Source: Hydrogenophilus sp. (lineage in GTDB: Bacteria > Pseudomonadota > Gammaproteobacteria > Burkholderiales > Thiobacillaceae). From it: a DNA stretch of 64,000 nt. Each line of letters opens with the position of its first letter. Position 1 is the first letter of the stretch. Both the position numbers and the translations under genes were made by a program. Where the stretch lies: positions 358-64,357 of the forward strand of contig JAIMKU010000003.1 of NCBI GenBank assembly GCA_020692235.1, in the 5' to 3' direction. Shown here piece after piece: positions 6,765 through 53,320 of this stretch. The notes under the pieces are model-generated. The model saw only the letters and a program-made list of their open reading frames with translations, did not search any database and was not told where the DNA came from.

Positions 6765-7183
6765 TCAACGCATGTTCTTGAGGGCATACTGGCTGACCTG
6801 ATTCTGTTGGGCCAGGGCGCGGCCCAGCACGGTGGCCAAGTTGCCGCTGGCCTTACCCTTGAGCAGACGAAGGGCGGTCAGGTCTTTGCTGAGTTGATCC
6901 ACCGCCGGGGTTAGCGTTGTCGGCGCGGCAGCGGGAGAAGACGACTTGAGCTGGATGAATTTCTCCAGGCTCTGGCCGGCCTTGTCCAGGGCCTTGGTGT
7001 ATTGGGGCACCAGCGGATTGGCGGCATAGGGTTTGACCGCGGCCAGATAATCGACCCTGGCCTTTGCCCACTGTCCCCGTACTTGAGTCGCCACGTCCGC
7101 CGAGGTGGCGGCCCAGGCCGCCAAGGGCGCCGCCAAACCAAGCAGCAGGGTCATAAGGATGAGGCGGACGGTATTTTTTTCAT
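6765..7183 (-). CDS. Small secreted helical hypothetical protein; probable start is out of frame by 1 nt in an A7 run
   Basis: GGAG RBS then ATG at 7183 followed by A7. An A8 run would give MKKNTVRLILMTLLLGLAAPLAAWA (signal peptide) in frame with the ORF ending at 6765. Confidence 0.6.
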
Positions 7184-15740: not shown

Positions 15741-16565
15741 CTAGTACTCCTCCGGCAGATTCTTCAACTGAGCCCACGAATAGACCGGCCCTTTGACGCA
15801 TACGTAGTCCTTGCCGACATTGCAGCGGCCGCACTTGCCCAGGCCGCATTTCATCTTGTTTTCCAGGGTCGTGTAGATCTGCTCGTCGGCGAAGCCAAGC
15901 TGGCTCAGATTCTGAATCACATACTTAATCATGATCGGCGGCCCACAGGTGACGGCGATGGCGTTATCGGGCGAAGGTTCCTTGTCCATCACGTTGGCCG
16001 GCACAAAACCGCAGTAGGCATCCCAGCCATCCTCGGCCTTGTCCACCGACAAATGGACGTCAGCGACGCCACGCAGCTTTTCCAGCTCCGACTTGTACAT
16101 GATGTCGCGCGGCGAACGGCCACCGTAGAACACGGTGATATTCTTGAACAGGTCGCGTTGCGCCACCGCCGTGGTAATCACCGGCCAGATCGGCGCCAGA
16201 CCGCTACCGCCGCCGATGAAACAAAGATTTCTGCCCCGCCAGTCATCGACCGGGAAACTGTTGCCGTAGGGGCCGCGAATACCGACCACGTCGCCCACCG
16301 CCAGATCGTGGAAGGCGGCGCTGACCCGCCCCACCCGCATGATGGAAAACTGCTTGTAGTCCTTGACCAGCGGCGAGGAGGCGATCGAGATCATCATTTC
16401 GCCGCGCCCGAACACCGATAGCATGGCGCACTGGCCGCACTCATGTTCGAAGCTGCCGCCGTTCAGCGGCTCGACCCGGAAGGTCTTGATAGCGCGTTCG
16501 CCGGGCACCTCTTCCTTGATGAAGGTGATCCGGGCCAGTTCTGGCAGATAGATGTTAGCCGGCAT
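15741..16565 (-). CDS. flxA: FlxA/AsrB-like FAD/NAD(P)-binding oxidoreductase
   Basis: 274 aa; GQCAMLS, RGPYGNSF, GGGSGLAP, CGPPIM, MKCGLGKCGRC (2Fe-2S). Confidence 0.85.
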   Translation of the reverse strand: MPANIYLPELARITFIKEEVPGERAIKTFRVEPLNGGSFEHECGQCAMLSVFGRGEMMISIASSPLVKDYKQFSIMRVGRVSAAFHDLAVGDVVGIRGPYGNSFPVDDWRGRNLCFIGGGSGLAPIWPVITTAVAQRDLFKNITVFYGGRSPRDIMYKSELEKLRGVADVHLSVDKAEDGWDAYCGFVPANVMDKEPSPDNAIAVTCGPPIMIKYVIQNLSQLGFADEQIYTTLENKMKCGLGKCGRCNVGKDYVCVKGPVYSWAQLKNLPEEY

Positions 16566-17589
16566 GTTCGGTTACCTTGTTGACCACATGGACGATGTCG
16601 ATCCCGACCGGGCAGTCGCTGATGCAGCGGCCGCAACCGGTGCATTGATGCATCCCGAAATTCTCGAAGAAATACTGAAACTTGTGGCACACCCGCTGGC
16701 GCAGCCGGGCACCGACGCTGGGCCTCGGATTGTGACCCGAGGTATGCATGGTGAAGTCGGGAAACTGGCAGTTGTCCCAGGTCCGTACCCGGCTGCCCTT
16801 GAGCGGCGCCGCACCGGTGACTTCGTCGTTGATATCGAAGCAGTGGCAAGTCGGGCACAGAAAGGTGCAGATGCCGCAGCCGATACAGGCTTGCGCCAGT
16901 TCTTCCCAGAGTGGCGACTTGAAACTGGCCTTGAGTTTGGCCGGCGCCCCATCAGCATCGTGAATCGCCCGTTGCGGCTGGGCGACGGCCTCGGCGTGCA
17001 GGTCTTTCAAGCGCTGGCGGTCAGCAACCTCCGGCTTCTTCAGCAGGTCACCCGCGACGGTCATCAATGCCTTGCCGGTCTCGGTGACCGCGGCCACGAA
17101 ATAGCGCTCGCCCAAGTCAGTCATCAGGACATCGAGACCGTCGCTGCCGACCGGCGAGCCGCCAACCGACAGGCAAAAGCAATTGCTGCTTACCGGCTTG
17201 TTGCAGGCCAGACCGACATAAGCCATGTTGTTGCGCCGCGTCTGATAGTAGGGGTCATCGACATGGTCGGCGAACACCCGATCCATGCGCACCGTGCCAC
17301 GACCGTCACAGGGACGCACGCCGAACGCCACGCGGCGCTTGCCTTGCGGCAGTTTCTGCGTCAATCGCGGCGCTTCGCCCTTGATCTGCTCGAAGGTGAA
17401 AAACACCTCCCGCTGGGGAAAAGCGAAGCCCTTGGGCGGCTGTTTGGTGTTGGGGTGATCGAGTCGGACAGCGCCGGCGACCGGCCGAAATGCCCAGACG
17501 TCGTCTTCGACCGCCGGCGCGAACGCATCCCAGTCGGTCAAGACGGCGATCCAGTCGTCCAGGCGTTGTTTATCGAGTATCTTTTCCAT
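16555..17589 (-). CDS. flxB: FlxB/AsrA-like 4Fe-4S dicluster protein
   Basis: Start MEKILDK at 17589; FGVRPCDG, CIGCGICTFLCPTCHCF, CTGCGRCISDCP. Confidence 0.85.
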   Translation of the reverse strand: MEKILDKQRLDDWIAVLTDWDAFAPAVEDDVWAFRPVAGAVRLDHPNTKQPPKGFAFPQREVFFTFEQIKGEAPRLTQKLPQGKRRVAFGVRPCDGRGTVRMDRVFADHVDDPYYQTRRNNMAYVGLACNKPVSSNCFCLSVGGSPVGSDGLDVLMTDLGERYFVAAVTETGKALMTVAGDLLKKPEVADRQRLKDLHAEAVAQPQRAIHDADGAPAKLKASFKSPLWEELAQACIGCGICTFLCPTCHCFDINDEVTGAAPLKGSRVRTWDNCQFPDFTMHTSGHNPRPSVGARLRQRVCHKFQYFFENFGMHQCTGCGRCISDCPVGIDIVHVVNKVTEHAG

Positions 17590-17593
17590 GCGC

Positions 17594-18625
17594 TTACCTG
17601 ATGAATTGACCGGGGTCGTCGTCGCGGAAGGAGGCCACCAGCGAGGGTCCGCCGATGCTCGCCCCAGGCTCATAGCCGAAGCGTTCGCGGGCCTCCAGTT
17701 CCATCTTGTTGTTGAGCAGGCGCAGCGGGATATTGACCGGGCAGACCCGTTCGCACTCACCGCAGTCGATGCAGCGGCCAGCCAGGTGCATCGCGCGCGT
17801 CATGTGGTAGGTGATGTTTTCGGAACGCACCGCCGAGCGCTCGATCCAGCGAATGCGATTGGCCTTTTCCTCGGCCGTGGTATCCGGCGCTACCGGGAAG
17901 GTGATGCTGTCCACCACGCACTCATCGCAGTAACACATCGGGCACACCGAGCGGCAGGCGAAGCAGCGGATGCAGCGCTCGAACTGACGGCGCCAGAATG
18001 CCCAGCGATCGACCGCACTGAGCGCCTCGAAACGGCCCAGCGCGGTAAATGGCGCCGCCAGTTGGCGTCCGGTCTTGTCCTCGCCGAACGCCACGTTGTG
18101 TTCCTTGGGGAAGGGCTCGCGGCATTCCAGGCAGCGATCCGCCATGACCTCACTGGCCGGCAACCTCACCTCACCCGCCGCGGTCGTGACAACCAGCTCG
18201 TCGCCGTCGAAGACGGCGCTCAATGCCTGGGCGCCATTCAGGAGCCGAGCCAGTTTGTATTCGACCAGTACGCCGCCACCTTCGCAGGACACGCCGATGA
18301 TGTAAACCTCATCGCGCTTGAAGTAGTGCTCCTGCATCAGCACGACGATGGCACGGGCGTCGCAGCCCTTGGCGATGATGGCGATAGGCAAGGTCGGGGT
18401 CCGTTGCGCATGGGCCAGCGCCTTGCGATCCTCGACCAGGTAGAGCGCCAGGTTGTGGAAGCAGGTGGCATCCCAGACCAATTCATCGGCCTGTTCCGGA
18501 TCGGTGATGGTGACCGGTTCGGCAAGCATGCCCCGGCTGCCGCGCCGGTAGCCGATGACGGCGCGAACCTCGCCCCTGGTCAACAGGTCGCGCGCCGCGT
18601 CACGGATACTCTGAACATCGATCAT
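17594..18625 (-). CDS. flxC: FlxC / FdhB-like 4Fe-4S protein
   Basis: 343 aa; KGCD, CIRCFACRSVCPMCYC, CIDCGECERVCP. Confidence 0.82.
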   Translation of the reverse strand: MIDVQSIRDAARDLLTRGEVRAVIGYRRGSRGMLAEPVTITDPEQADELVWDATCFHNLALYLVEDRKALAHAQRTPTLPIAIIAKGCDARAIVVLMQEHYFKRDEVYIIGVSCEGGGVLVEYKLARLLNGAQALSAVFDGDELVVTTAAGEVRLPASEVMADRCLECREPFPKEHNVAFGEDKTGRQLAAPFTALGRFEALSAVDRWAFWRRQFERCIRCFACRSVCPMCYCDECVVDSITFPVAPDTTAEEKANRIRWIERSAVRSENITYHMTRAMHLAGRCIDCGECERVCPVNIPLRLLNNKMELEARERFGYEPGASIGGPSLVASFRDDDPGQFIR

Positions 18626-19053
18626 GTGCGGTCCGCCTTCAATTTGTCCTGCGGCCCAAGCGGCTTGAGGTCGGCGACAAAGTCCTTGACGACCTGGGCG
18701 TACTTGGCGCCTTCGGCGGCCGACACCCAGGACATCCGGAGCCGATCCGGCTCGACGCCGACCATCTCAAGCAGTTCCTTGATTAAGTAAATCTTGCGCC
18801 GCGCCAGGTAGTTGCCCTCGATGTAGTGGCAGTCGCCGATATGGCAGCCCGACAGCAGGACGCCGTCCGCCCCCTTGTTGAAGGCCGACAGGATGTAGAG
18901 CGGCGAAATGCTGCCCGAGCATGGTACGGTGATCGGCGTCGCGTTGGCCGGGTACTGAATCCGCGAGACTCCGGCCAAGTCGCTGCCCGCCGACGAGCAC
19001 CACTTGCACAGGAAGGCGACGATCTTGGGTTCGTAAGCTTGTTCTTCCGACAT
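18622..19053 (-). CDS. flxD: FlxD/MvhD 2Fe-2S subunit
   Basis: FLCKWCS, VPCSG, GCHIGDCHY, WVSAAEG. Start set at MSEEQ. Confidence 0.92.
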   Translation of the reverse strand: MSEEQAYEPKIVAFLCKWCSSAGSDLAGVSRIQYPANATPITVPCSGSISPLYILSAFNKGADGVLLSGCHIGDCHYIEGNYLARRKIYLIKELLEMVGVEPDRLRMSWVSAAEGAKYAQVVKDFVADLKPLGPQDKLKADRT

Positions 19054-19067
19054 CGGTTTCCCTTCCA

Positions 19068-21017
19068 TCAAGCCAAACAGGCTTCGATCATCTCGAAGAC
19101 CTGCATCTGGGTGGCATTTTTAACCTCGATGGCGGCGCGCAGGCAGGTGGCCGTGCAACTGCCGCAACCTTCGCAAAGCACTTCGTTCACTACTGCCTTG
19201 CCGTTCTCCAGCCGGATCGCGTGGTAGGGGCAGGCGGTGACGCACATCTCGCAGCCGGTGCAATGGGAGCGGCGCACGCGGGCGACGGTTGGCGCATGGC
19301 TGAGGGTCGCCTGCGACAGCAACGCGATCACCTTGGCGGCGGCGGCGCCGGCCTGGGCAACGGTTTCGGGAATGTCCTTCGGGCCTTGGGCGGCACCGGC
19401 CAGGAAGATGCCGGCGGTGACGCTTTCGACCGGCCTCAGCTTGGGGTGGGCCTCAGCCAGGAAGCCATCCTTGTCGCGGCCGATCTTGAGCACCTTGGCG
19501 GCCTGAGCCGTACCCTTGGAGGGTTGCATGGCGAGTGCCAGCACCACCATGTCGGCGTCGATCTCGACGTTCTGGCCGGTCAGCGTGTCGGTACCGAGCA
19601 CCTTGACCTTGCCGTTATGCCGGTAGAGTTTGGAAACGCGACCGCGCAGATAAATGGCCCCGTCCTCCTCCATGGTGCGCTGCACAAACTCCTCGTAGCC
19701 CTTGCCGCCGGAGCGGATGTCGATGTAGAACACATAGGCGCGGCCATCCGGGACATGGTGTTTGTAGAGGGTGGCGTGTTTGGCGGTGTACATGCAGCAA
19801 ATCTTCGAGCAGTAGGCGCAGTGCTGAGCCGGGTCGCGCGAGCCGACACACTGGATGAACACCACGTCCTTGGGCACCTTGTGGTCGGAGGGTCGCAGCA
19901 CATGACCGCTGGTTGCGCCCGAGGCCGAACACAGACGCTCGAATTGCAGGCCATCGAGCACGTCCTCGACCTTGCCGTAGCCGTACTCGGCAATATTTTC
20001 CTGGGGATAGAGATCGAAGCCGGTGGCCACGACGATGGCGCCCACCTCTTCGACCACCGTCTCGGGCCGCATGTCATAGTTGATCGCATCGGCCTCGCAA
20101 GCATCCTTGCACTTGCCGCAACGGATCGGGTTCAAACCCAAACACGCCTCCTCGTCGAGCGTGTAGCTGGCCGGGATCGCCTGCGCATAAGGGATGTAGA
20201 TGGCGCGTCGGGCGGTCAGGCCAAGCTCGTATTCGTTGGGCACCACCACCGGGCAGACCTGGGTGCAGTCATCGCAGATATTGCACTTCTCGGGATCGAC
20301 AAAGGTCGGCTTCTTGAGAATTTTGGCCTTGAAGTTGCCCACCGAGCCGGAGACTTCCTGCACCTCGCAGTAGGTCATTACCTTGATCTTGGGGTGACGC
20401 GACACCTCCACCATCTTGGGCGACAGGATGCACTGCGAGCAGTCCAGGGTGGGGAAGGTTTCGGAGAGCTGGAGCATGTGGCCGCCGAGGGTGGCCTGTC
20501 TCTCGACCAGGATCACCTCCAGACCGGCGTTGGCCATATCGAGGGATGCCTGGATGCCGGCGATGCCGCCACCGATGACCATCACTCGGCGGGTGACCGG
20601 GACGGCAATCGGCTCCAGTGACTGGTTGCGGCCGGCCCGGCGCACGGCGCTGCGCGAAATCTTGATCGCCTTCTCGGTGCCCACATCGCGATCCTTGTGC
20701 ACCCAGGCGCACTGCTCGCGAATGTTGGCGATTTCGCAGGTGAAGCCGCTGATACCGGCACGGGTGGTGTTATCGCGAAAGGTCTTCTCATGCAGTGACG
20801 GCGAACAGCAGGAGACCACGACGCTATCCAACTGGTTATCCTTGATCGCCTGAATGACCGCGTTCTGACCGGGGTCGGAACACATGTAGACGTAGTCCTG
20901 GGAATAGACGACGGTCTCCTCGGCGGACATCTCCTTGACCACTCGCGCCACATCGACCGTGGCGGCGATGTTGTTGCCGCAGTGACAGACGAATACCCCA
21001 GTGCGCTTTTTGGTCAT
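19068..21017 (-). CDS. hdrA: Heterodisulfide reductase subunit A (flavin-based bifurcating subunit)
   Basis: 649 aa; VFVCHCG, NIREQCAWVH, VIGGGIAG, TFPTLDCSQC, CSKICCMY, several CxxCxxC ferredoxin motifs. Confidence 0.95.
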   Translation of the reverse strand: MTKKRTGVFVCHCGNNIAATVDVARVVKEMSAEETVVYSQDYVYMCSDPGQNAVIQAIKDNQLDSVVVSCCSPSLHEKTFRDNTTRAGISGFTCEIANIREQCAWVHKDRDVGTEKAIKISRSAVRRAGRNQSLEPIAVPVTRRVMVIGGGIAGIQASLDMANAGLEVILVERQATLGGHMLQLSETFPTLDCSQCILSPKMVEVSRHPKIKVMTYCEVQEVSGSVGNFKAKILKKPTFVDPEKCNICDDCTQVCPVVVPNEYELGLTARRAIYIPYAQAIPASYTLDEEACLGLNPIRCGKCKDACEADAINYDMRPETVVEEVGAIVVATGFDLYPQENIAEYGYGKVEDVLDGLQFERLCSASGATSGHVLRPSDHKVPKDVVFIQCVGSRDPAQHCAYCSKICCMYTAKHATLYKHHVPDGRAYVFYIDIRSGGKGYEEFVQRTMEEDGAIYLRGRVSKLYRHNGKVKVLGTDTLTGQNVEIDADMVVLALAMQPSKGTAQAAKVLKIGRDKDGFLAEAHPKLRPVESVTAGIFLAGAAQGPKDIPETVAQAGAAAAKVIALLSQATLSHAPTVARVRRSHCTGCEMCVTACPYHAIRLENGKAVVNEVLCEGCGSCTATCLRAAIEVKNATQMQVFEMIEACLA

Positions 21018-21577
21018 GATGCCGCACCGCCCGCGTTCAAGGTATTGATGCCGTGCTCATAACCCTTCTCGAAGGCCTTGATATTGGCCTTCAGAAAACG
21101 GTCGGGCACCAGGCCGGGCAGCGCCTTCTTCATGGCTTCGGCGGACACCACTTTGGTCACCGCGGTCAAGAAGCCCAGCGCCACCAGGTTGGTGAACAGC
21201 CGATTGCCCACTTCCTCGGCGAAACGGGTCGCCGGCACGCGATAGAGTTCGAGCTCAGGATGCTCGCCGCTTAGTTTCACCAGGTCCTGTTCGACGATCA
21301 GAATGCCGCCCTTGGGCAACTCACCGTAATACTTGTCGTAGGCCTCCTGGGATAGCGCCAGGAGAATCCCGGGGTGGGTGATGTAGGGATAGAGGACGCG
21401 TTCGTCGGAAACCACGAGTTGGGCCGCGCAGGCGCTGCCACGAGCCTCCGGGCCGAAGCTCTGGGTCATGGTGGCAAACTTGTCGTCATACAGAGACAGT
21501 GCCTTGCCGGTAATCAGGGCGCAGCGGATGATGCCCTGACCACCGAATCCCGAGAACCTGATTTCATGAGTGCTCAT
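21014..21577 (-). CDS. korG: 2-oxoacid:ferredoxin oxidoreductase gamma subunit
   Basis: IRFSGFGGQG, QSFGPEARG. Confidence 0.88.
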   Translation of the reverse strand: MSTHEIRFSGFGGQGIIRCALITGKALSLYDDKFATMTQSFGPEARGSACAAQLVVSDERVLYPYITHPGILLALSQEAYDKYYGELPKGGILIVEQDLVKLSGEHPELELYRVPATRFAEEVGNRLFTNLVALGFLTAVTKVVSAEAMKKALPGLVPDRFLKANIKAFEKGYEHGINTLNAGGAAS

Positions 21578-21588
21578 GCGCTCGCTTC

Positions 21589-22752
21589 CTACTTACGGGT
21601 CTTCTTGGCCGCAGCGGTTGCCGGGGCCTTTTTGGCCACAACCTTGACGGCGGATTTCCTGGCCACAGCGGTTGCCGAAGCCTTTTTCGCCGCTGCCTTG
21701 ACGGCAGGTTTCTTGGCCGCAGGTTTCTTGGCGGCGACCTTTTTTACCGGGGCCTTGGTTGCGACCTTCTTCACTGCCTTCACTGCCGCCTTTTCGGATG
21801 CGGCCTGTTCCGCCGCCAGCACGACAGCCCGACGGGCGGCAACCCTCTCCTTTTCGGCCTTTTCTTCGGCTTCCCGCTCTGGAATGGTCTTGCCATAAAG
21901 CTGGTAATCGTCGCCCACTAACCTGACGGCGCATTTATCGACCGCCTCCAGATAAGTAGGCTTGGCCTTGTCAACAAACTTGCCGACGACGATCTTGCCC
22001 TGGAAGTCGATAGCCGTCTCGCGGGTATCGCAGCCATGCTTGAGTACCGTGTTTTCCTGATAGTACTGAAGCATGTCGACGCCGTCGCCGAGGCGGTTGC
22101 GGCGCAGATAGAGCGTGGTGCAGGGCGAGATGATCTCGATGAAGGAGAAGCCCTTGTGGACCAGCGCTTCCTCCATCGACTGGGTGATATTACGCACATT
22201 CACCGAGGTCCAGCGGGCAATATAGGTGGCGCCGGCGGCATCGGCCAGTAACGGCAGACTGAACGGGTATTCGTAGTTACCGTAGGGCGTGGTCGAGGTG
22301 ATTGCCGAGGTTGGCGTGGTCGGCGTCACTTGGCCGCCGGTCATGCCGTAGGTGAAGTTATTGTTGCAGATGACCACAATATCCATGTTGCGCCGGGCGG
22401 CATGGATCAAGTGGTTGCCGCCGATACCCACCAGGTCGCCCTCACCACTGAACACCACCACCGTCAACTCGGGGTTGGCGAGCTTGATGCCGGTGGCCAC
22501 TGGAATGGCGCGGCCATGCGTGGTGTGGATCGAATCGAAATCGACATAGCCCGCCACCCGTCCGGTGCAACCGATGCCCGACACCACGACCAGCTTATTG
22601 TGGTCGATGCCGCTGCGTTTGATGGCCTCGGCGAAGGCGTTCACCTCGGAGCCAATGCCGCATCCGGGGCACCAGATATGCGGCATCCGCTCCATGCGCA
22701 GGACCCCGGACATGGGGCTGTCGTGTTTGAATTTTCCAATATCGGTAGTCAT
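21589..22752 (-). CDS. korB: 2-oxoacid:ferredoxin oxidoreductase beta subunit with a ~95 aa Lys/Ala-rich C-terminal extension
   Basis: WCPGCG, SGIGC, HTTHGR, GEGD..IG (ThDP), NNFTYGMTGGQ..PT, SPCTT; tail ...KKVAAKKPAAKKPAVKAAAKK... Confidence 0.9.
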   Translation of the reverse strand: MTTDIGKFKHDSPMSGVLRMERMPHIWCPGCGIGSEVNAFAEAIKRSGIDHNKLVVVSGIGCTGRVAGYVDFDSIHTTHGRAIPVATGIKLANPELTVVVFSGEGDLVGIGGNHLIHAARRNMDIVVICNNNFTYGMTGGQVTPTTPTSAITSTTPYGNYEYPFSLPLLADAAGATYIARWTSVNVRNITQSMEEALVHKGFSFIEIISPCTTLYLRRNRLGDGVDMLQYYQENTVLKHGCDTRETAIDFQGKIVVGKFVDKAKPTYLEAVDKCAVRLVGDDYQLYGKTIPEREAEEKAEKERVAARRAVVLAAEQAASEKAAVKAVKKVATKAPVKKVAAKKPAAKKPAVKAAAKKASATAVARKSAVKVVAKKAPATAAAKKTRK

Positions 22753-23915
22753 TGATTGGCCTTTCTGATGGCATCCAGGATGACCTCCGGGTCATGCACC
22801 GCACCACCACAGTGATTGACGCTGATAACCTTGCTCTTGCCGGCGGCACAGCGTTCCACCTCAAGCACCATCTGGCCGTAGTTGATCTCCGGCACCACGA
22901 ATGCCTTCACCTTACCAGTCAGTTCGCGGATGCGCTTCTCGCAGAACGGCCAGATGGTGATGAGCCGCAAGGAGCCGACCTTGATACCTTCCCTGCGGGC
23001 GTCCTGGATGGCCTTGACGGCGATGCGGGAGGTGATGCCATAGGACACCACCACGACATCGGCACCGTCGATCTGATCTTCGTCGAGACGGATGATCTGG
23101 TCGGCATTACTGCGTATCTTCTCCATCAGGTGGGTGATCACGATCTTGCTCTGCTCGGCGGTCATGACCGGGTAGCCGCGTTCGTCGTGAGTCAGACCGG
23201 TGATGTGGAAATGGTAGCCATCGCCGCACTGAGTCATGGGATGACCGCCTTGACCATCGAACTTGTATGGTCGGAAGTCGGCCTTGGGGCCACTGTAATT
23301 ATTGCGCGGTACCACCTGTATCTGGTCGGCCGGCGGGATGACGACCTTCTCGTGCATGTGGCCGACGGTTTCGTCGCTCAGGATGATGACCGGCACCCGG
23401 TAGAACTCGGACAGATTGAAGGCCTCGACGGCGACATCGAAGCATTCCTGCGGGCTATCCGGCGACATGGCGATGATGGCGTAATCGCCATGCGAGCCAT
23501 AGCGCGCCTGCATCATGTCCTGCTGGGCGGTCAATGTCGGCAGGCCGGTCGACGGGCCGCCACGCTGCACGTTGGCGATCACCAAGGGGGTTTCGGTCAT
23601 GGCCGCCAGGCCAATGTTCTCCACCATCAGGGAGAAGCCGGGGCCACAGGTCACGGTCATCGCCTTGCGACCGCCCCAGGCGGCGCCGATCAGGGCGGCG
23701 ATGGAGGCCAGCTCGTCCTCCATCTGAATGAATAGCGCACCGACCTCGGGCGCCCGCTCGGCGAAGCGCTCGGCCGTCTCGGTTGAGGGTGTGATGGGAT
23801 AGCCGGCAAAGAACCGGCAGCCGGCCGCCAGGGCGCCCTCGGCGATGGCTTGGTCACCATCCATGAAGTGCGGGCCGCTGTCGACCCCTTTGGGATCTGC
23901 GCTAACGGTGTTCAC
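22749..23915 (-). CDS. korA: 2-oxoacid:ferredoxin oxidoreductase alpha subunit
   Basis: FFAGYPITPSTE, QMEDELAS, VQRGGPSTGLPT; GTG start overlaps the korD stop (GTGA). Confidence 0.9.
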   Translation of the reverse strand: MNTVSADPKGVDSGPHFMDGDQAIAEGALAAGCRFFAGYPITPSTETAERFAERAPEVGALFIQMEDELASIAALIGAAWGGRKAMTVTCGPGFSLMVENIGLAAMTETPLVIANVQRGGPSTGLPTLTAQQDMMQARYGSHGDYAIIAMSPDSPQECFDVAVEAFNLSEFYRVPVIILSDETVGHMHEKVVIPPADQIQVVPRNNYSGPKADFRPYKFDGQGGHPMTQCGDGYHFHITGLTHDERGYPVMTAEQSKIVITHLMEKIRSNADQIIRLDEDQIDGADVVVVSYGITSRIAVKAIQDARREGIKVGSLRLITIWPFCEKRIRELTGKVKAFVVPEINYGQMVLEVERCAAGKSKVISVNHCGGAVHDPEVILDAIRKANQ

Positions 23916-24175
23916 TTTTCTGCTTCCCCTTTCGCAATTTCGTCATCCTTGGTCACGAAGATAGAAAACTCCGGACAGATCATTTGGCAATACTGGCAGT
24001 CATGGCATTTTTCCGGGTTCTTGGCATAGGGCGGGTGATAGCCCTTGGCATTGAATTCGGGCGAGATATCCAGCACGTTGGTCGGACAAAACTGGACACA
24101 AAAACCGCAGCCCTTGCACCAGATGTCGTTGATATAAACCGTGCCATGGAGTTGCTTGAGATTATTGAAGAACAC
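23912..24175 (-). CDS. korD: Ferredoxin-like delta subunit (2x 4Fe-4S)
   Basis: 87 aa; WCKGCGFCVQFCP and CHDCQYCQMICP. Confidence 0.88.
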   Translation of the reverse strand: MFFNNLKQLHGTVYINDIWCKGCGFCVQFCPTNVLDISPEFNAKGYHPPYAKNPEKCHDCQYCQMICPEFSIFVTKDDEIAKGEAEK

Positions 24176-24185
24176 GCCGCATCCC

Positions 24186-25064
24186 TCAGGCCAGGCCGCG
24201 GCCGGCCAAGGTCGGCCGCGGATCGATGTGATGGAGGTCGAAACGTAGCGCCGTATCGTCGCAGCCGAACGCCAACGCCATCAACTGGGTAAAGTAAAGC
24301 ACCGGCAGGTGATAAAAGTCCGGATTAAGGCGACGCGCGTCATCCTGCCGGAAGTCCAGATTGAAGGCGCACAGCGGGCAGCTCACCACCACCAGGTCGG
24401 CCTGTTCCTCGTGCGCCGAACCCATGATCTTGTCGGTGCGCTCAGCGATGATTTCCGGCTTGTCGACGGTGTGATAGGCGCCGCAACATTCGGTCTTCAA
24501 GGGAAACTGGACCGGGGTGGCGCCGAGGGCCGTAATCAGGTCCTCCATAATCGTCGGGTTTTCGACATCGTCGAAGGCGACCTCTTTCGGGCGCGCCAGC
24601 AGGCAGCCGTAGTAGCAGGCGACGCGCAGGCCCGCGAGCGGTTTTTTCACCTTCTCGGCCAGCTTGTCGAAACCGATCCGGTCGCGCAGGAATTCGAGTA
24701 GGTGCAGGACGTCAACATCGCCCTGGTATTTGGTTTCCTCTTGGTACAGAAACTCGTTGATGGTTGCCAGCGCATCGGGGCGCTTCTTGACGTCGATATT
24801 GGCACGTTTGAGGGTGTTGTAACACATGGCGCAAGTGGTCATGAACTCGCTGGCTTGGGCCTCTTTGACGCGAATCAGGTTGGTCACCGGCGCCACCCGA
24901 TTCATGATGTTGTCGGAGCCCAGCGCGTGTACCGTGCCACAACAGTTCCAGCGCGCCAGCTCCTCGACCTCGACATCCAGTTTCGCCATCGACGAGATGG
25001 TGGAAACGTCGAAATTCCGGGCCTGGTTCTTCAGTGTGCAGCCGGGATAATAAATAAGTTTCAT
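24186..25064 (-). CDS. hdrB: Heterodisulfide reductase subunit B
   Basis: 292 aa; YYPGC, WNCCG, YYGCLL, ECCGA, SCPLC (two CCG domains). Confidence 0.93.
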   Translation of the reverse strand: MKLIYYPGCTLKNQARNFDVSTISSMAKLDVEVEELARWNCCGTVHALGSDNIMNRVAPVTNLIRVKEAQASEFMTTCAMCYNTLKRANIDVKKRPDALATINEFLYQEETKYQGDVDVLHLLEFLRDRIGFDKLAEKVKKPLAGLRVACYYGCLLARPKEVAFDDVENPTIMEDLITALGATPVQFPLKTECCGAYHTVDKPEIIAERTDKIMGSAHEEQADLVVVSCPLCAFNLDFRQDDARRLNPDFYHLPVLYFTQLMALAFGCDDTALRFDLHHIDPRPTLAGRGLA

Positions 25065-25083
25065 CGGCGTATTTCCATTTCCA

Positions 25084-25503
25084 TCAGGATGTCTGCTTGC
25101 GCAGGGCGCTGATCAGGGCGATCGGCGGCAACGCGCCGATCGCCTCGGGAGATAGCGCCTGAATCTTGAGCTGGTCGTCGCGGTTAACTGTGCCCAGCAC
25201 GGTTTGGCGCAACGCTTCGATAACCTCGGCGATCCGGATATCCTTCGGGCAGCGGCTATTGCAGGTCATGCAGGATACGCAAATCCAGATGGCGCGGGTC
25301 GCCAGCAACTGTTTCTCCATGCCGAGTTGCGCCATGCGGATAATCCGGTTGGGCAGCACATCCATGTGCGCCGCCATCGGGCAACCGGCGGAGCACTTAC
25401 CGCACTGGTAGCAGGCCAGCAACTTCTGGCCGCTGACCTGTTCGATCTTGGCCACAAAGGTACCGCCAAACCGAGGCGAAGAAATGTGTAAGGTGGTATT
25501 CAT
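25084..25503 (-). CDS. hdrC: Heterodisulfide reductase subunit C (short)
   Basis: CYQCGKCSAGCP, IWICVSCMTCNSRCP. Start MNTT at 25503. Confidence 0.9.
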   Translation of the reverse strand: MNTTLHISSPRFGGTFVAKIEQVSGQKLLACYQCGKCSAGCPMAAHMDVLPNRIIRMAQLGMEKQLLATRAIWICVSCMTCNSRCPKDIRIAEVIEALRQTVLGTVNRDDQLKIQALSPEAIGALPPIALISALRKQTS

Positions 25504-25511
25504 GGTCCGCC

Positions 25512-26069
25512 TCAGTATTTCCCATCCATGCGGAACTCGGGCGAATCGAGCCACAACCCGACGTTCTGCACACTGTCCAGTTGGGCCTGGAGACTGTCGT
25601 AATGGAAGCCCTCTTCCTGGATTATTTTGCCGATCAGACTGAGCAGATCGCGATCCGTGGTGTGTTCTGAGATTTCCTTGTATATCTGAATGGCGCGCCG
25701 TTCCATCTCCATGGCCAAGCGCAGTGCCTGGGTATCGTCGGCAACCACTTCGTGACCGCGTTGCACAACGGCCGCTTGCAGCTCAGCGATAGTCTTCGAT
25801 GGCTGGACGAGCGCCGCTTCCTGCTCGGCAAGCCGCTGCCACTCCTCTTCACCAATGAGCGCGGCAAACAGTGTGTGGGTTTCCGCCACATGTTCCGTCT
25901 CCGCTGCCGCCAGGCGCAGGAACATGGCCTTGCCGGTAGGGTTCTGAGTTAACTCGGCCACATGACGGTAGAAACGCTCGCCGCCAAACTCGAAGCCGAT
26001 TGCGGTGCGCGCCAGTTCGATTACCTTATCGTCGATGTGAGTCATGGTTTTGACCGGCGCGTCAGGCAT
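25512..26069 (-). CDS. Ferritin-like / rubrerythrin-family di-iron protein
   Basis: EFGGERFY, ETEH, EMERRAIQIY, EEGFH di-iron-type motifs. Start overlaps the tfrA stop (ATGCCTGA) and has a GAGGA RBS. Confidence 0.8.
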   Translation of the reverse strand: MPDAPVKTMTHIDDKVIELARTAIGFEFGGERFYRHVAELTQNPTGKAMFLRLAAAETEHVAETHTLFAALIGEEEWQRLAEQEAALVQPSKTIAELQAAVVQRGHEVVADDTQALRLAMEMERRAIQIYKEISEHTTDRDLLSLIGKIIQEEGFHYDSLQAQLDSVQNVGLWLDSPEFRMDGKY

Positions 26070-27777
26070 CGGACCGATCCTCTTGCAGGCGGTTATGCAC
26101 CACCGAGGCGCCGGGCAGCACGTTGCCGCCACGCACCAGTTGCCGCTTTCTGACATCCTTGGGGGCGTAGGACGGCAACAGGATCGGGGCCACCAGATCG
26201 GTCTGCACGCCGGAATCAACCAGTTCCTTCTCGTAGTTATCGAGGTGTGCCAGGCTGAGTTTGCCGAGTTTGACGGTCTTGGCGTAGGCGCCGGCCGCCT
26301 GGCCGGCGCGCCGACCGAATACGTTGTAGTCGAGTACCGAATTGCCCATCAGCCGGTTGCGGCCATGCAGACCGCCGCTCGCTTCGCCGGCGACGTAGAG
26401 GCCGGGGATGTTGGTCTCGCAGCGGTCGTTGATCTCGACACCGCCGTTCTGGTAGTGCAGCGACGGGTAGACCAGCATCGGCAGTTTGTTGATGTCGATA
26501 CCGTAGCGGATGTACTGGCGGTACATGGCCGGGAACTGGTGGGCCACATAGCCTTCGCCGTGCAGCATGTCGATCAGCGGCGAGTCCAGCCACACGCCGA
26601 GTCGCCCCGACGGGGTCTCGATGCCGCCGCCGTTTTGCACACATTCGCGGATGATGGCCGAGGCCTCAATGTCGCGTGGCTCACGTGGGAAAACGAACAG
26701 CTCGCCATCCTTGTTCAGCGGTTGGCCGCCGGCACCACGTATCTTCTCGGTAATCAGGAAGCCTGCGATCTGCTCGGGGAAAGAGGCGCCGGTAGGGTGG
26801 TATTGCACCGAATCCATATACATCAGCTTGGCGCCGGCGCGGTAGGCCATCACCAATCCGTCGCCAGTGGCGCCATAGTGGTTGGTGGTGTCGAAGCCGC
26901 GAATGTGCAGGCGGCCGTAACCGCCGGTGGCGATCAGTGTGGACTTCGCCTTGACAGTAAAAAATTCTTCGCTGTCCATGCTGTAAAGAATGGCACCGGC
27001 GCAGCGGCCCTCGTCATCCATAATCAATTCCACCGCCGGCATGAATTCCTTGATGTCGATCATGTCGGGGTGGTTGCGCACCTCGTCCATCAGGGTGCGC
27101 ATAATCATGGCGCCGGTGTAGTCGCGGCACGAGACCATGCGCTTGCGCGAGGTGCCGCCGCCATGCAGCACCTGAATGGCGCCGTCTTCCTCCTTGTCCC
27201 ACACTACGCCCAGGTCTTCGAGCCACTTGACCACGCCGGGACCGTCTTCGGTGAGCGCCTTGACCAACTCCGGTTTATTCTCGAAGTGGCCGCCGCCAAT
27301 CGCGTCCAGATAGTGCCTGGTCGGCGAGTCGGTGCGCGACACGGCGGCCTGCATCCCACCCTGGGACATCATGGTATTGGCATCGCCCATACGTAGCTTG
27401 GTGGCGATCAGCGAGCGGATACCGTGTTGCTGCATGGCGGCCAGGGCGGCGTTGCAACCGGCACCGCCACCGCCGATGATGAGCAGGTCGGTTTCGATAT
27501 CCGGATGGTCGAGGTCCACCTGCTCGCTACGCAGCCAGGAGTGGGATTCCAGCAGATCCGCCACTTCGGTGGTCAGCTTTTCGCCCCGGTTGGGACCGAC
27601 GCGTACCGGCCGCAGTGCATCGGGTTTGTAGTCGGGATGAAAATTTTCCAGCACATTGCGCCGCTCTTCGGCGCTCATGGGCGGGTAAACGGGATCAGGC
27701 TTTCTGGCCAATTCCAGGCGAGCCGGCCGCGTCTGAACGACCTTGCGCAACGACTCTTCCATGTACTCTGGATACAT
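26062..27777 (-). CDS. tfrA: Soluble fumarate reductase flavoprotein (TfrA-like)
   Basis: 571 aa; IIGGGGAG, ANTMMSQGG, HGG.SRKR, QYHPT, TEKIRGAG, RDIEA, HYQNGG, LHGRNRLMGNS. Confidence 0.85.
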   Translation of the reverse strand: MYPEYMEESLRKVVQTRPARLELARKPDPVYPPMSAEERRNVLENFHPDYKPDALRPVRVGPNRGEKLTTEVADLLESHSWLRSEQVDLDHPDIETDLLIIGGGGAGCNAALAAMQQHGIRSLIATKLRMGDANTMMSQGGMQAAVSRTDSPTRHYLDAIGGGHFENKPELVKALTEDGPGVVKWLEDLGVVWDKEEDGAIQVLHGGGTSRKRMVSCRDYTGAMIMRTLMDEVRNHPDMIDIKEFMPAVELIMDDEGRCAGAILYSMDSEEFFTVKAKSTLIATGGYGRLHIRGFDTTNHYGATGDGLVMAYRAGAKLMYMDSVQYHPTGASFPEQIAGFLITEKIRGAGGQPLNKDGELFVFPREPRDIEASAIIRECVQNGGGIETPSGRLGVWLDSPLIDMLHGEGYVAHQFPAMYRQYIRYGIDINKLPMLVYPSLHYQNGGVEINDRCETNIPGLYVAGEASGGLHGRNRLMGNSVLDYNVFGRRAGQAAGAYAKTVKLGKLSLAHLDNYEKELVDSGVQTDLVAPILLPSYAPKDVRKRQLVRGGNVLPGASVVHNRLQEDRSDA

Positions 27778-27790
27778 CCTGATTCCCCTC

Positions 27791-28531
27791 TTATTCCGAA
27801 TCTCGTGCGTAATAGCGTTCCGACAAGGCTTCGCGGTCCATCGCCATCAGTTCGGCGTATTCCGCCTCATAGACACCCTCTTCCACCGCCTTGACGCGCT
27901 CCGCCAGTTCCGGGCTGTCCTTGCGCAGATAGCGGCCATAGAGGCGCTTCGCCAGGATGGCCATCAGGGGTTGGGTAATTTCGGCCGGGCAGCGCAACAT
28001 GCACAGACCGCAGACGACGCAGTCGAAGGACAGGTCCATCACCGCAGCGATGTCACCGCGCTTGGCGGCCTGGACGTAATCCATGACCTGGAGCCCCTGC
28101 GGACAGGACTTGGTGCAGGTGCCGCAGGCGACGCAGCGGAACACCGTCGGGTACATCTGCTGGATGGCGCTGACGTTCGGCCTGAGCTTCTCGATGTCGT
28201 AGATCGCCTTCTCGGCCGGAACAGAGGGTATCTGCGCCAGCGTCATGCCGTCCTCGACCAGGGTCATACAGGCCAGGCCGGCACGGATTTTGTAATCGCC
28301 GGGTAAACGGTAGAGGGTGGCGCAGGCGCCGCAATAGCCCTCGCGGCAACCGGCACCGCGGATGATCTGGTGGCCGGCATATTCGATGGCGCCCATGATG
28401 GTCGCCTCGGCCGGCACCTCATAGGCCTTGCCCATGATATATACCGTGATCAGTCGCTCCGCCGCCTCGCGCTCTCCGTCGACCGCCGAAGTCGATGGAC
28501 TGTTCGCTGTTCCCGCCGGCACGCCCGTCAT
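27791..28531 (-). CDS. tfrB: Fumarate reductase Fe-S subunit (TfrB-like, no membrane anchor)
   Basis: 246 aa; GCREGYCGAC...LAC (2Fe-2S), CVACGTCTKSCP, CVVCGLCMLRCP. Confidence 0.82.
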   Translation of the reverse strand: MTGVPAGTANSPSTSAVDGEREAAERLITVYIMGKAYEVPAEATIMGAIEYAGHQIIRGAGCREGYCGACATLYRLPGDYKIRAGLACMTLVEDGMTLAQIPSVPAEKAIYDIEKLRPNVSAIQQMYPTVFRCVACGTCTKSCPQGLQVMDYVQAAKRGDIAAVMDLSFDCVVCGLCMLRCPAEITQPLMAILAKRLYGRYLRKDSPELAERVKAVEEGVYEAEYAELMAMDREALSERYYARDSE

Positions 28532-28722: not shown

Positions 28723-28828
28723 AAAAAAAATTAAATTACCCTTCATGGCCATACCAATTATCGTTGTCGTTTAGCGATGCCATCGCGATCGCATCGAATA
28801 TTTCCACCTTGCCGACTAGGAGACCTTC

Positions 28829-53301: not shown

Positions 53302-53320
53302 TCCAAGAAGGGGAAAGATA

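What the first reader, a model, noticed from the sequence alone, without database searches (positions are those of the whole stretch)
21589..21880. Histone-H1-like Lys/Ala tail on KorB
Seen: after the normal beta-subunit end come an E/K-rich helix (EREAEEKAEKE) and ~70 aa of AAKKP-type repeats ending KKTRK, in frame and with the stop just before korG. Established: such tails occur in AlgP, PhaF and Hc-type proteins that bind DNA or other polyanions. Inference: it could tether the CO2-fixing enzyme to the nucleoid, polyphosphate or acidic Fe-S partners, or promote condensate-like assembly. I do not know of this tail on a 2-oxoacid oxidoreductase.
Basis: partly seen in the sequence, partly recalled or inferred. 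Interest (0 to 1): 0.68.

Follow-up and report, generated by a model that had tools for sequence, protein, structure and literature searches.

The report
Histone-like lysine tail on KorB
The beta subunit of a CO2-fixing 2-oxoglutarate:ferredoxin oxidoreductase carries a real, strongly positive, disordered Lys/Ala tail found in over a hundred related groundwater bacteria but missing in its nearest relatives, so it is an optional add-on, probably for sticking to DNA, RNA or polyphosphate, with an untested role.

Summary
korB (21589-22752, minus strand, 387 aa) has a normal TPP/[4Fe-4S] beta-subunit core (aa 1-292). It is followed by an E/K-rich predicted helix (aa ~290-321) and a 66-aa Lys/Ala segment (aa 322-387). 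Its last 65 residues hold 20 K, 2 R and no D/E; tail net +22. The stop lies 11 nt before korG.

It is not an assembly artefact. Of the 120 closest cluster representatives, 114 carry such a tail (76-188 aa, +17 to +44). A second study's contig has the same tail length, and metatranscriptomes of relatives contain tail-coding RNA.

The tail is confined to one Gallionellaceae/Nitrosomonadales-type clade. No solved OFOR has it, and no other 50%-identity representative does.

The helix is older. Tubeworm-symbiont and alphaproteobacterial KorBs in the same frd-hdrCB-korDABG-hdrA-flxDCBA rTCA cluster share it, followed there by a short acidic tail.

The K/A segment is evolutionarily labile. It contains DNA tandem repeats, behaves as a single ~200-nt indel, and is absent from the closest relative (93% core identity). 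It is therefore dispensable for catalysis.

It resembles AlgP/PhaF/H1 tails in composition only (HC2 Pfam: 8.8 vs 40 bits). The best reading is a non-specific polyanion-binding tail; its physiological role is untested. It is a new variant of a known kind, of moderate interest.

The parts
21589..22752 (-). korB: 2-oxoacid (2-oxoglutarate):ferredoxin oxidoreductase beta subunit, 387 aa, including the tail
   Evidence: ORF. Pfam TPP_enzyme_C at aa 68-207. PDB 8ys5_C OGOR beta matches at E 4e-58. Cys28/31/62/211 and the GEGD...NNN TPP motif are invariant in the alignment.
21877..22752 (-). Catalytic core of KorB, aa 1-292, net charge -2
21790..21885 (-). E/K-rich then Ala-rich predicted alpha-helix, aa 290-321 (PEREAEEKAEKERVAARRAVVLAAEQAASEKA)
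   Evidence: AF2 secondary structure H290-321, pLDDT 61-68. R293 E294 A295 E296 K298 A299 E300 R307 R308 are invariant in 46 homologues. The helix is also present in outgroup KorBs that carry acidic tails.
21592..21789 (-). Lys/Ala-rich, predicted disordered polycationic segment, aa 322-387. Its last 65 residues (aa 323-387) hold 20 K and 2 R with no D/E, and it ends in KKTRK.
   Evidence: Homologues carry 76-188-aa versions.
21602..21735 (.). DNA tandem repeats inside the tail-coding region: 54-nt period x2.2 (82% match) and 15-nt period x2.6 (KPAAK units)
   Evidence: Tandem Repeats Finder
21578..21600 (-). korB 3' end (ACC CGT AAG TAG) plus the 11-nt spacer GAAGCGAGCGC. This is the likely Shine-Dalgarno and initiation region of korG and is nearly invariant at the nucleotide level.
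   Evidence: The short-tail variants read through this spacer.
21014..21577 (-). korG (gamma subunit)
   Evidence: Pfam POR and NCBIfam NF006323
22749..23915 (-). korA (alpha subunit)
   Evidence: Pfam POR_N and PFOR_II. NCBIfam NF006412 scores 546 bits, above its cut-off of 411.
23912..24175 (-). korD (delta subunit, 2x[4Fe-4S] ferredoxin-like)
15741..21017 (-). hdrA (19068-21017), mvhD/flxD (18622-19071), flxC, flxB and flxA: the Hdr-Flx-type putative electron-bifurcating module directly downstream of korG
   Evidence: Synteny is conserved in relatives.
24186..28531 (-). hdrB (24186-25064), hdrC (25084-25554), rubrerythrin (25512-26219), and a soluble fumarate-reductase-like flavoprotein (26062-27777) with its Fe-S subunit (27791-28531), all upstream of korD

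Best explanation
The extension is a genuine, translated C-terminal appendage of the OGOR beta subunit, made of two modules.

(i) An older E/K-rich helix. It is typical of KorB proteins encoded in the Endoriftia-type frd-hdr-kor-hdr-flx rTCA cluster.

(ii) A younger Lys/Ala(/Pro/Val)-rich polycation. It is clade-specific, intrinsically disordered, and about +0.3 charge per residue. It grew by tandem duplication of the DNA and is kept by selection for composition rather than sequence.

The most likely mechanism is that the tail acts as a non-specific electrostatic tether, as H1-like tails of AlgP, PhaF and PhaM do. It would bind cellular polyanions (nucleoid DNA, RNA or polyphosphate). If the enzyme is dimeric like other OFORs, there would be two tails per complex. 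The tail would then hold the otherwise acidic OGOR at or in such polyanion phases rather than changing its catalysis.

Shown here: the existence, anatomy, conservation of composition, clade restriction and natural dispensability of the tail. Inferred: disorder (weak AF2 model), polyanion binding, any localisation, and any benefit.
For: Reality of the tail:
- The ORF is continuous.
- Contigs from the same study are identical. An independent study's contig (depth 221) has 45 substitutions and no gaps over 2 kb, so its tail is the same length.
- RNA contigs of relatives run from the korB core into the tail and from the tail into korG.

Conservation:
- 114 of 120 closest cluster representatives carry a tail of 76-188 aa, net +17 to +44.
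- The pooled distal composition is A 35%, K 32%, P 10%, V 9%, T 7%, D+E 0.5%.
- At most a few of the 114 long tails end aberrantly; only P0008 looks like a clear frame or stop disruption.

Selection on composition:
- The six amino-acid differences from the sister strain stay within A/V/K/R/S/P and keep the charge.
- A frameshift would give long P/R-rich or G/E-rich tails, and these are essentially not seen.

Specificity: no other K/A tract occurs in 380 kb of window plus loci.

Charge: KorA -13, KorB core -2, KorG -1 and KorD -3 sum to about -19 per protomer, against +22 for the tail.

Disorder: coil with pLDDT around 40 after the helix 290-321.

Analogy:
- AlgP's KPAA C-terminal domain (protein net +55) binds DNA and localises to polyP granules (PMC9239181).
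- PhaF's KPAA disordered region binds RNA, and this depends on its lysines (PMC12818456).
- The tail aligns in several registers, at 54% identity, with a bona fide HC2-family histone-H1-like protein.
- It also hits the Lys/Ala C-terminus of a ValRS model.
Against: - No binding, localisation or phenotype data exist for any KorB tail.
- The closest relatives lack the tail (core 93% identical; Hydrogenophilales and Sulfuricella MAGs). Single 90%-identity clusters mix forms of 307 to 482 aa. Any function is therefore accessory and often lost.
- The tail tolerates a foreign 20-aa palindrome-encoded insert.
- It fails the HC2 profile and has only one exact KPAA and one KPAV unit.
- Why a soluble enzyme would profit from nucleoid or polyP association is unclear.
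- Relatives in other classes carry an acidic tail at the same place. That could mean the sign of the charge is not critical.
Confidence: 0.45

Rival explanations
1. The tail is a tolerated low-complexity expansion with little or no specific function. Replication slippage at a permissive, surface-exposed C-terminus produced a K/A tract. It is nearly neutral, or acts at most as a generic solubility or charge-balancing 'bristle'.
For: - DNA tandem repeats of 54 and 15 nt lie inside the tail.
- Tail length ranges from 76 to 188 aa.
- Strain-level length heterogeneity and contig breaks occur in the tail in metagenomes.
- The tail is absent from the nearest relatives as a single indel of about 200 nt.
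- An in-frame palindromic insert is tolerated, once or twice per tail.
- The conserved KKTRK end is explained by nucleotide conservation of the korG initiation region.
- Other KorB lineages have unrelated C-terminal extensions or gamma-subunit fusions, so this terminus is permissive.
Against: - Composition is tightly held over more than 100 diverged sequences, with D+E 0.5% and K 32%.
- The reading frame is kept almost always, although frameshifts would not create early stops.
- Replacements are conservative for charge.
- No other protein in 380 kb has such a tract, so it is not a genome-wide drift.
- A +20 to +44 polycation is unlikely to be physiologically inert.
Confidence: 0.25
2. The tail recruits an acidic redox partner electrostatically. 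It captures the strongly acidic low-potential ferredoxin, or docks the Hdr-Flx or fumarate-reductase modules. This keeps reduced ferredoxin close to OGOR, as a 'ferredoxin leash' or a supercomplex glue.
For: - korDABG is embedded between hdrCB and hdrA-flxDCBA, next to a soluble Frd.
- In Endoriftia this cluster has been proposed to form an electron-bifurcating assembly that feeds ferredoxin to OGOR, and its genes are co-expressed (PMC13147460, PMC11636981).
- The helix part of the extension is specific to KorBs of this cluster type.
- The tail carries enough charge to bind several acidic ferredoxins (general knowledge, inference).
Against: - No cluster protein differs in charge or gains an acidic tract between tail-bearing and tail-less loci.
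- The window holds no acidic tract and no stand-alone acidic ferredoxin gene.
- The same cluster works in other lineages with an acidic KorB tail, and in close relatives with none.
- In the cell, DNA, RNA and polyP are far more abundant polyanions and would compete (inference).
- I know of no precedent for a long disordered Lys tail as a ferredoxin receptor.
Confidence: 0.15
3. The tail binds RNA and acts in cis or trans on translation, as PhaF does. The KPAA-like tail would bind mRNA near a Shine-Dalgarno sequence, for example that of korG 11 nt downstream, and tune synthesis of korG-hdrA-flx or of other transcripts.
For: - The KPAA disordered region of PhaF binds RNA upstream of Shine-Dalgarno sequences and activates translation (PMC12818456).
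- The korB stop overlaps the putative korG Shine-Dalgarno in a highly conserved nucleotide block.
- The tail contains KPAA and KPAV units.
Against: - Only one or two exact KPAA-type units are present.
- Tail-less relatives keep the same operon with a similar spacer.
- There is no evidence that an enzyme subunit in a large complex acts as a translational regulator.
- This reading rests purely on analogy.
Confidence: 0.08
4. The tail is an artefact: a mis-assembly, a frameshift or a wrong gene call, with the true KorB ending at about aa 292-320.
For: - Low-complexity repeats are prone to assembly error.
- Metagenome contigs fragment in this region in some runs.
Against: - Identical contigs occur in three runs.
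- A same-length tail occurs in another study at depth 221.
- There are 114 independent homologues in the same frame.
- RNA contigs cross the region.
- No in-frame stop precedes 21591.
Confidence: 0.01

Closest known systems
AlgP and PhaF C-terminal KPAA-repeat domains of Pseudomonas (histone-H1-like tails); also PhaM, mycobacterial Ku/HupB/TopA PAKKA tails and chlamydial Hc1/Hc2
   Same: - All are C-terminal, predicted disordered tracts rich in Lys, Ala and Pro, with high positive charge.
- Repeat number varies greatly between close relatives, and the repeats arise from tandem DNA repeats.
- These tails are known to bind DNA, polyP (AlgP; PMC9239181) and RNA (PhaF; PMC12818456).
- The KorB tail aligns with an HC2-family protein at 54% identity in several registers.
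   Different: - The host protein here is a central metabolic enzyme, not a nucleoid, granule or regulatory protein.
- Repeats are irregular, with only one KPAA and one KPAV. The tail has more Val and Thr and fewer Pro.
- The window's tail is shorter: +22, against +55 for AlgP.
- It fails the HC2 Pfam profile (8.8 vs 40 bits).
- Binding has not been tested.
Canonical four-subunit 2-oxoglutarate/2-oxoacid:ferredoxin oxidoreductases (KorDABG/OorDABC; solved beta subunits 8YS5, 5B46-48, 6N2N)
   Same: - The TPP-binding beta core, the four Cys ligands of the [4Fe-4S] cluster and the GxGD...NN(N) TPP motif.
- The delta-alpha-beta-gamma operon order.
   Different: - Solved beta subunits are 273-305 aa and end where the KorB core ends. 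None has the helix or the tail.
- NCBIfam equivalog scores for KorB lie below their cut-offs (246 vs 364), so this is a divergent subfamily.
KorB of the Endoriftia-type rTCA/Hdr-Flx cluster (tubeworm symbionts, Rhodomicrobiaceae and other Alphaproteobacteria)
   Same: - The frdAB-hdrCB-korDABG-hdrA-flxDCBA synteny is the same, and the cores are 70-73% identical.
- The same E/K-rich helix follows ...YGKT/S.PE.
- The cluster is described in PMC11636981 and PMC13147460.
   Different: - There the helix is followed by a short acidic tail (for example ...EDEEAQMMAEDMGVDEEGL, ...DDPVDHGGDDD).
- Here it is followed by a long basic one, which is a charge inversion.
- A rubrerythrin gene sits in the cluster only in the betaproteobacterial clade.
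Valine-tRNA ligase with a Lys/Ala-rich C-terminal appendix (NCBIfam NF011492, PRK14900)
   Same: An enzyme carrying a C-terminal K/A tract of about 90 residues. The KorB tail (aa 296-386) matches model positions 954-1043 at E 2e-9.
   Different: - The match is compositional, and the rest of the protein is unrelated.
- In tRNA ligases such appendices plausibly bind the tRNA substrate (general knowledge). OGOR has no nucleic-acid substrate.

Membership tests
2-oxoacid:ferredoxin oxidoreductase beta subunit (KorB/OorB) | C-terminal-type TPP-binding domain (PF02775) with the GxGD...NN motif | tested here: met
   PF02775 at E 1.3e-31, aa 68-207. G103-E-G-D106...N130-N131-N132 are invariant in 46 homologues.
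2-oxoacid:ferredoxin oxidoreductase beta subunit (KorB/OorB) | Four conserved Cys ligating the proximal [4Fe-4S] cluster | tested here: met
   C28, C31, C62 and C211 are invariant. The CPGCG motif aligns with that of solved OFOR beta chains. The ligand role is taken from the published OFOR structures (my own knowledge).
2-oxoacid:ferredoxin oxidoreductase beta subunit (KorB/OorB) | Score above the curated NCBIfam equivalog or subfamily cut-off | tested here: not met
   The best hit, NF007207, scores 246 bits against a cut-off of 364. TIGR02177 scores 216 against 261.9. This is a divergent subfamily. The alpha subunit does pass (NF006412, 546 vs 411).
2-oxoacid:ferredoxin oxidoreductase beta subunit (KorB/OorB) | Encoded with the alpha, gamma and delta subunits in one operon | tested here: met
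   korD-korA-korB-korG are contiguous, with overlapping or 11-nt junctions.
2-oxoacid:ferredoxin oxidoreductase beta subunit (KorB/OorB) | Specificity for 2-oxoglutarate and CO2-fixing direction | not testable with these tools
   Inferred only from the rTCA context: aclAB, aconitase, IDH and frd in the same cluster.
Histone-H1-like Lys/Ala/Pro tails (AlgP/PhaF CTD; Pfam HC2 PF07382) | Composition dominated by K, A and P, with almost no acidic residues | tested here: met
   The last 65 residues are 72% K+A+P with no D/E. Pooled over homologues, K+A+P is 77%.
Histone-H1-like Lys/Ala/Pro tails (AlgP/PhaF CTD; Pfam HC2 PF07382) | Regular short tandem repeats (KPAA or PAKKA type) | tested here: inconclusive
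   One KPAA and one KPAV unit are present. DNA repeats of 15 nt x2.6 and 54 nt x2.2 occur. Otherwise the tract is irregular.
Histone-H1-like Lys/Ala/Pro tails (AlgP/PhaF CTD; Pfam HC2 PF07382) | Significant match to the family profile | tested here: not met
   HC2 scores E 2.2 and 8.8 bits against a cut-off of 40 for the window's tail, and gives no hit for a 188-aa homologous tail. A tail-only search of 5.8 billion proteins gave nothing at E<=1e-3.
Histone-H1-like Lys/Ala/Pro tails (AlgP/PhaF CTD; Pfam HC2 PF07382) | Intrinsic disorder | tested here: inconclusive
   AF2 gives coil with pLDDT 39-47 for aa 322-387, but the whole model is poor (mean pLDDT 52.6).
Histone-H1-like Lys/Ala/Pro tails (AlgP/PhaF CTD; Pfam HC2 PF07382) | Binding of DNA, RNA or polyphosphate | not testable with these tools
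   Needs EMSA or localisation experiments.
Endoriftia-type rTCA gene cluster with an Hdr-Flx module | Synteny frdAB-hdrCB-korDABG-hdrA-flxDCBA next to aclAB, aconitase and IDH | tested here: met
   Pfam annotation of window 7323-28531. The same order is found in Escarpia symbiont, Rhodomicrobiaceae and other loci. The cluster is described in PMC11636981 and PMC13147460.
Endoriftia-type rTCA gene cluster with an Hdr-Flx module | Flavin-based electron bifurcation supplying ferredoxin to OGOR | not testable with these tools
   This is a hypothesis in the literature only.

The most novel reading that the evidence does not exclude
The polycationic tails (two per complex if the enzyme is dimeric like other OFORs) organise low-potential electron flow in space. 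They would condense with polyphosphate or RNA, or hold several acidic ferredoxins. Either way they would create a membrane-less micro-environment around OGOR and the co-encoded Hdr-Flx/Frd module. That environment would keep reduced ferredoxin and the O2-labile enzyme together in microaerophilic iron- and sulfur-oxidising Betaproteobacteria. It would be a condensate-type solution for running the rTCA cycle near oxygen.
Probability: 0.1. Interest if true: 0.8.

Novelty: new variant of a known kind. Interest (0 to 1): 0.5.

Why it matters
Histone-H1-like Lys/Ala tails in bacteria are known mainly from nucleoid, granule and regulatory proteins such as AlgP, PhaF, PhaM, Ku and HupB. Finding one on the TPP/Fe-S subunit of a key CO2-fixing enzyme would extend these tails to core metabolism. 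It occurs in more than a hundred environmental Gallionellaceae- and Nitrosomonadales-type sequences.

It also offers a natural experiment. Tail-bearing and tail-less enzymes more than 90% identical co-occur in aquifers, and the sister lineages carry an acidic tail at the same position.

If the tail localises or condenses the enzyme, or holds ferredoxin, it would bear on how O2-sensitive rTCA enzymes work in microaerophiles. It would also bear on the proposed OGOR/Hdr-Flx supercomplex. If it does nothing, it is a clean example of a large charged low-complexity expansion tolerated on an essential enzyme.

There is also a practical point. Tryptic proteomics will largely miss such tails, and annotation pipelines label these proteins as ordinary KorB.

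Tried and rejected
- A tail-only search of the 5.8-billion-protein set found 2104 word-sharing candidates, none at E<=1e-3. It gave no list of other protein families with this tail.
- A tail-only Pfam scan at E<=10 gave only a non-significant HC2 hit.
- The AlphaFold2 model of KorB came out poor (mean pLDDT 52.6, shallow alignment of sequences more than 72% identical, monomer without partners). I used only its secondary structure and ran no fold search.
- I looked for a co-evolving acidic partner by comparing lengths and net charges of all 13 cluster proteins between tail-bearing, tail-less and outgroup loci. There was no consistent difference. No acidic tract and no stand-alone acidic ferredoxin was found in the window.
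- I considered that the conserved C-terminal KKTRK is a peptide motif. I rejected it as the main explanation, because ACC CGT AAG TAG GAAG is invariant at the nucleotide level while the two preceding Lys codons vary.
- I considered the tail a remnant of a beta-gamma fusion linker. The beta-gamma fusions among the representatives have short linkers that are not K/A-rich.
- I considered a genome-wide K/A habit. There was no other such tract in 380 kb.
- Literature searches for a Lys-rich tail on a ferredoxin oxidoreductase, or for an rTCA/korB report in Gallionellaceae, found nothing relevant.
- I looked for a cultured carrier of the tail. All named members are MAGs.
- The neighbour-joining tree places the tail-less forms inside the tailed clade. 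It has no support values, so the direction of change (loss, gain or recombination) stays open.
Full report
**1.

On the minus strand, ORF 21589..22752 encodes a 387-aa protein. Pfam finds the C-terminal-type TPP-binding domain at aa 68-207. The best PDB relative is an OGOR beta subunit of 273 aa (8ys5_C, E 4e-58). Other solved OFOR beta chains are 292-305 aa, and none extends past the equivalent of aa ~290.

After ...DDYQLYGKTIPE comes REAEEKAEKERVAARRAVVLAAEQAASEK. Then follows AAVKAVKKVATKAPVKKVAAKKPAAKKPAVKAAAKKASATAVARKSAVKVVAKKAPATAAAKKTRK and the stop. The 95-aa extension is net +22. Its first 30 residues are net 0. Its last 65 contain 20 K, 2 R, 23 A, 10 V, 4 P, 4 T, 2 S and no acidic residue. 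The 292-aa core is net -2.

The stop (21591-21589) lies 11 nt before the korG ATG at 21577. AlphaFold2 predicts a helix at 290-321 and coil with pLDDT around 40 after it. The model is poor overall (mean pLDDT 52.6), so I use only this coarse statement.

The tract is the only K/A-rich stretch in six-frame translations of the 64-kb window. The same is true of 316 kb of fetched loci, except for one protein that was fetched because it is K/A-rich.

**2. It is not an artefact**

Contigs from three runs of one aquifer study are identical to the window here. A 2777-nt contig from a different groundwater study (depth 221) covers 21001-23000 with 45 substitutions and no gaps, so it has the same tail length. 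The tail differences listed for that contig give six replacements: V>A, A>V, R>K, S>P and V>A twice. All stay within the tail's vocabulary and keep the charge.

Two aquifer metatranscriptomes hold contigs of relatives about 88-90% identical. These run from the korB core into the tail, and from the tail (a version 123 nt shorter) into korG. They also hold a tail-less variant ending ...EQTEANE*. Contigs show presence of RNA, not expression level.

**3. Context**

korB sits in korD-korA-korB-korG. Upstream lie hdrC, hdrB, a rubrerythrin and a soluble fumarate-reductase-like pair. Downstream lie hdrA, mvhD/flxD and flxCBA. Further downstream are aclB, a 900-aa aclA, aconitase and a monomeric IDH, all on the minus strand.

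This is the rTCA/Hdr-Flx cluster described for the Riftia symbiont. There an electron-bifurcating assembly feeding fumarate reduction and OGOR has been proposed, and the genes are co-expressed (PMC11636981, PMC13147460).

The rest of the window is ordinary chromosome: glnD, pdxJ, recO, era, rnc, lepB, lepA, degP-like, rseB, nadB-like and sat.

Nearest relatives are MAGs labelled Gallionella, Gallionellaceae, Sideroxydans, Nitrosomonadales, Sulfuricella, Hydrogenophilales and one Sulfuricaulis, from groundwater-type samples. No isolate was found.

**4. Distribution**

- *Close homologues.* Among the 120 best 90%-identity cluster representatives (72-100% identical), 114 carry a tail of 76-188 aa (median 122) and net +17 to +44 (median +31). 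Pooled distal composition is A 35%, K 32%, P 10%, V 9%, T 7%, D+E 0.5%. Ninety-eight end in KKTRK. The window's tail is at the short end.
- *Wider KorB family.* Among the 150 best 50%-identity representatives out of 1.84 billion proteins, only the representative of this clade (P0121) and a fragment of it (P0128) have the tract. The longer hits are beta-gamma fusions or carry unrelated extensions.
- *Species genomes.* In the same cluster, KorBs of Escarpia symbionts, Rhodomicrobiaceae, a Rhodocyclaceae MAG and two Alphaproteobacteria (67-73% identical) keep an E/K-rich helix after ...YG(K/M)(T/S).PE. They then end in a short acidic tail. More distant KorBs (Ignavibacteriales, Zixibacteria, Solibacteraceae) have no extension at all.

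So the helix is the older, cluster-associated feature. The K/A polycation is a later addition in one clade.

**5. The K/A segment is labile**

- It contains DNA tandem repeats: 54 nt x2.2 at 82% match, and 15 nt x2.6.
- The relative with the most similar core (P0007 = L001, 93%, with flanking genes 84-95% identical) lacks it. So do Sulfuricella-type sequences.
- The DNA comparison fits a single indel of about 200 nt. The short forms go from ...LAEQ straight into what is the korB-korG spacer in the window. That spacer is then translated as ...EANE* or ...EASA*, ending at the TGA that overlaps the korG ATG.
- Single 90%-identity clusters contain forms of 307 to 482 aa.
- In a neighbour-joining tree of the cores, the tail-less forms sit inside the tailed clade, which suggests loss or recombination. 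The tree has no support values.
- In some metagenomes the contigs break inside the tail, which points to strain-level length variants.

The tail is therefore not needed for OGOR catalysis.

**6. Yet it is not free-running junk**

Composition is held across more than 100 diverged versions. Frameshifts would not meet early stops; they would give long P/R-rich or G/E-rich tails. Such ends are almost never seen, P0008 being the clear exception. Neighbouring genes have no such tracts.

The conserved KKTRK end should not be over-read. ACC CGT AAG TAG GAA(G/T)CGAGCGC ATG is nearly invariant as nucleotides, while the preceding Lys codons vary. In one locus the GTAAGTAGGAA block moved with korG. It is most simply the korG initiation region.

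**7. Mechanism**

A disordered tract with about 0.3 positive charges per residue and no acidic residues will bind polyanions. That is what the analogous tails do:
- AlgP's KPAA domain binds DNA and localises to polyP granules (PMC9239181).
- PhaF's KPAA region binds RNA in a lysine-dependent way (PMC12818456).

The four OGOR subunits without the tail sum to about -19 per protomer, so the tail flips the local electrostatics. I therefore favour a non-specific tether to DNA, RNA or polyP that positions or concentrates the enzyme (confidence 0.45 for this as the selected function).

Rivals:
- A tolerated slippage expansion with at most a generic solubility effect (0.25).
- Electrostatic capture of acidic ferredoxin or of Hdr-Flx/Frd (0.15). 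I found no charge-compensating partner in the cluster and no acidic tract or acidic ferredoxin gene in the window. The same cluster also works with acidic or absent tails.
- PhaF-like RNA binding that affects korG translation (0.08).
- An artefact (0.01).

**8. Comparison with what is known**

The tail works like, but is not a demonstrable member of, the H1-like tail families:
- HC2 scores 8.8 bits against a cut-off of 40.
- The similarity to a true HC2-family protein (54% identity, several registers) is compositional.
- So is the similarity to the K/A end of a ValRS model.

KorB itself is a clear OFOR beta subunit by domain, motifs, Cys ligands and operon, but it lies below the NCBIfam equivalog cut-offs. 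I found no report of such a tail on any 2-oxoacid oxidoreductase. Databases name these proteins plain KorB.

**9. Verdict**

This is a real, widespread, clade-specific and unreported appendage on a key rTCA enzyme. It is a new variant of known kinds (OFOR beta subunit plus H1-like tail). Its function is inferred only by analogy, and it is naturally dispensable. Interest is moderate (0.5). The natural tail-bearing, tail-less and acidic-tail series makes it readily testable.

Noticed in passing
L005:7018-7077 (also L022, L024, L026, L027, L029; not in the window's own korB): A 60-nt AT-richer palindrome sits inside the K/A tails of 13-15 of the 120 homologues. Its sequence is AAAACGAAGTTTCAGAGCAAGGTAATGCCTGCGAAGCAGGCGTTAGCTGGAACTAAAAAG, and it folds as a hairpin of -21 kcal/mol. 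It lies at different positions in different tails and twice in P0274/P0278. It is always in frame and reads KTKFQSKVMPAKQALAGTKK. A metagenome scan found the same element, in the same frame, at the 5' end of a small unrelated gene with weak BrnA/CopG-antitoxin similarity (L023, L025, L028). It looks like a small mobile or recombining element.
   Followed up: partly
window 7323-28531 (minus strand): This stretch holds most of an rTCA gene cluster of the Endoriftia type: frdAB-like, hdrCB, korDABG, hdrA, flxDCBA, aclB, a 900-aa aclA, aconitase and a monomeric IDH. The nearest relatives are Gallionellaceae-, Sulfuricella- and Nitrosomonadales-type Betaproteobacteria, a group usually described as using the Calvin cycle. 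The Gallionellaceae pangenome paper does not contain the term rTCA.
   Followed up: partly
window 25512-26219 (minus strand): A rubrerythrin gene lies between the frd-like genes and hdrC. It is found only in the betaproteobacterial versions of the cluster, both tail-bearing and tail-less. It is absent from the tubeworm-symbiont and alphaproteobacterial versions. It may be an oxidative-stress adaptation of the cluster.
   Followed up: no
window 21790-21885; L007-L013 and L020 near position 6860-6980: There is a charge inversion at one position. All KorBs of this cluster type share an E/K-rich helix after the core. Outside the betaproteobacterial clade it is followed by a short acidic tail (net -4 to -12 for the whole protein end). 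Inside the clade it is followed by a +17 to +44 basic tail.
   Followed up: partly
window 21578-21600; L002, L004, L006, L022, L024: The last codons of korB plus the spacer (ACC CGT AAG TAG GAAGCGAGCGC ATG) are almost invariant as nucleotides. In L006 the GTAAGTAGGAA block is displaced together with korG, behind an extra codon and a new stop. In tail-less relatives the spacer itself is translated (EANE*/EASA*), ending at a TGA that overlaps the korG ATG.
   Followed up: yes
window 11570-14272 (minus strand): The putative AclA is 900 aa. At E<=1e-5, Pfam gives only a weak Succ_CoA_lig match (8e-9) and no citrate-synthase-like domain. This may be the divergent 'type II' ATP-citrate lyase.
   Followed up: no
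window 53240-55327 and 56894-58648 (minus strand); 28736-29449 (minus strand): These long ORFs (695, 584 and 237 aa) have no Pfam match at E<=1e-5. The first overlaps an equally long plus-strand ORF (53321-55330), so the coding strand is unresolved.
   Followed up: no
P0165 (368 aa) and P0235 (420 aa); beta-gamma fusions P0124, P0126 and others: Other KorB lineages carry unrelated C-terminal extensions (Pro/Arg-rich, or helical repeats) or are fused to the gamma subunit. The beta C-terminus therefore appears to be a generally permissive, surface-exposed site in OFORs.
   Followed up: no
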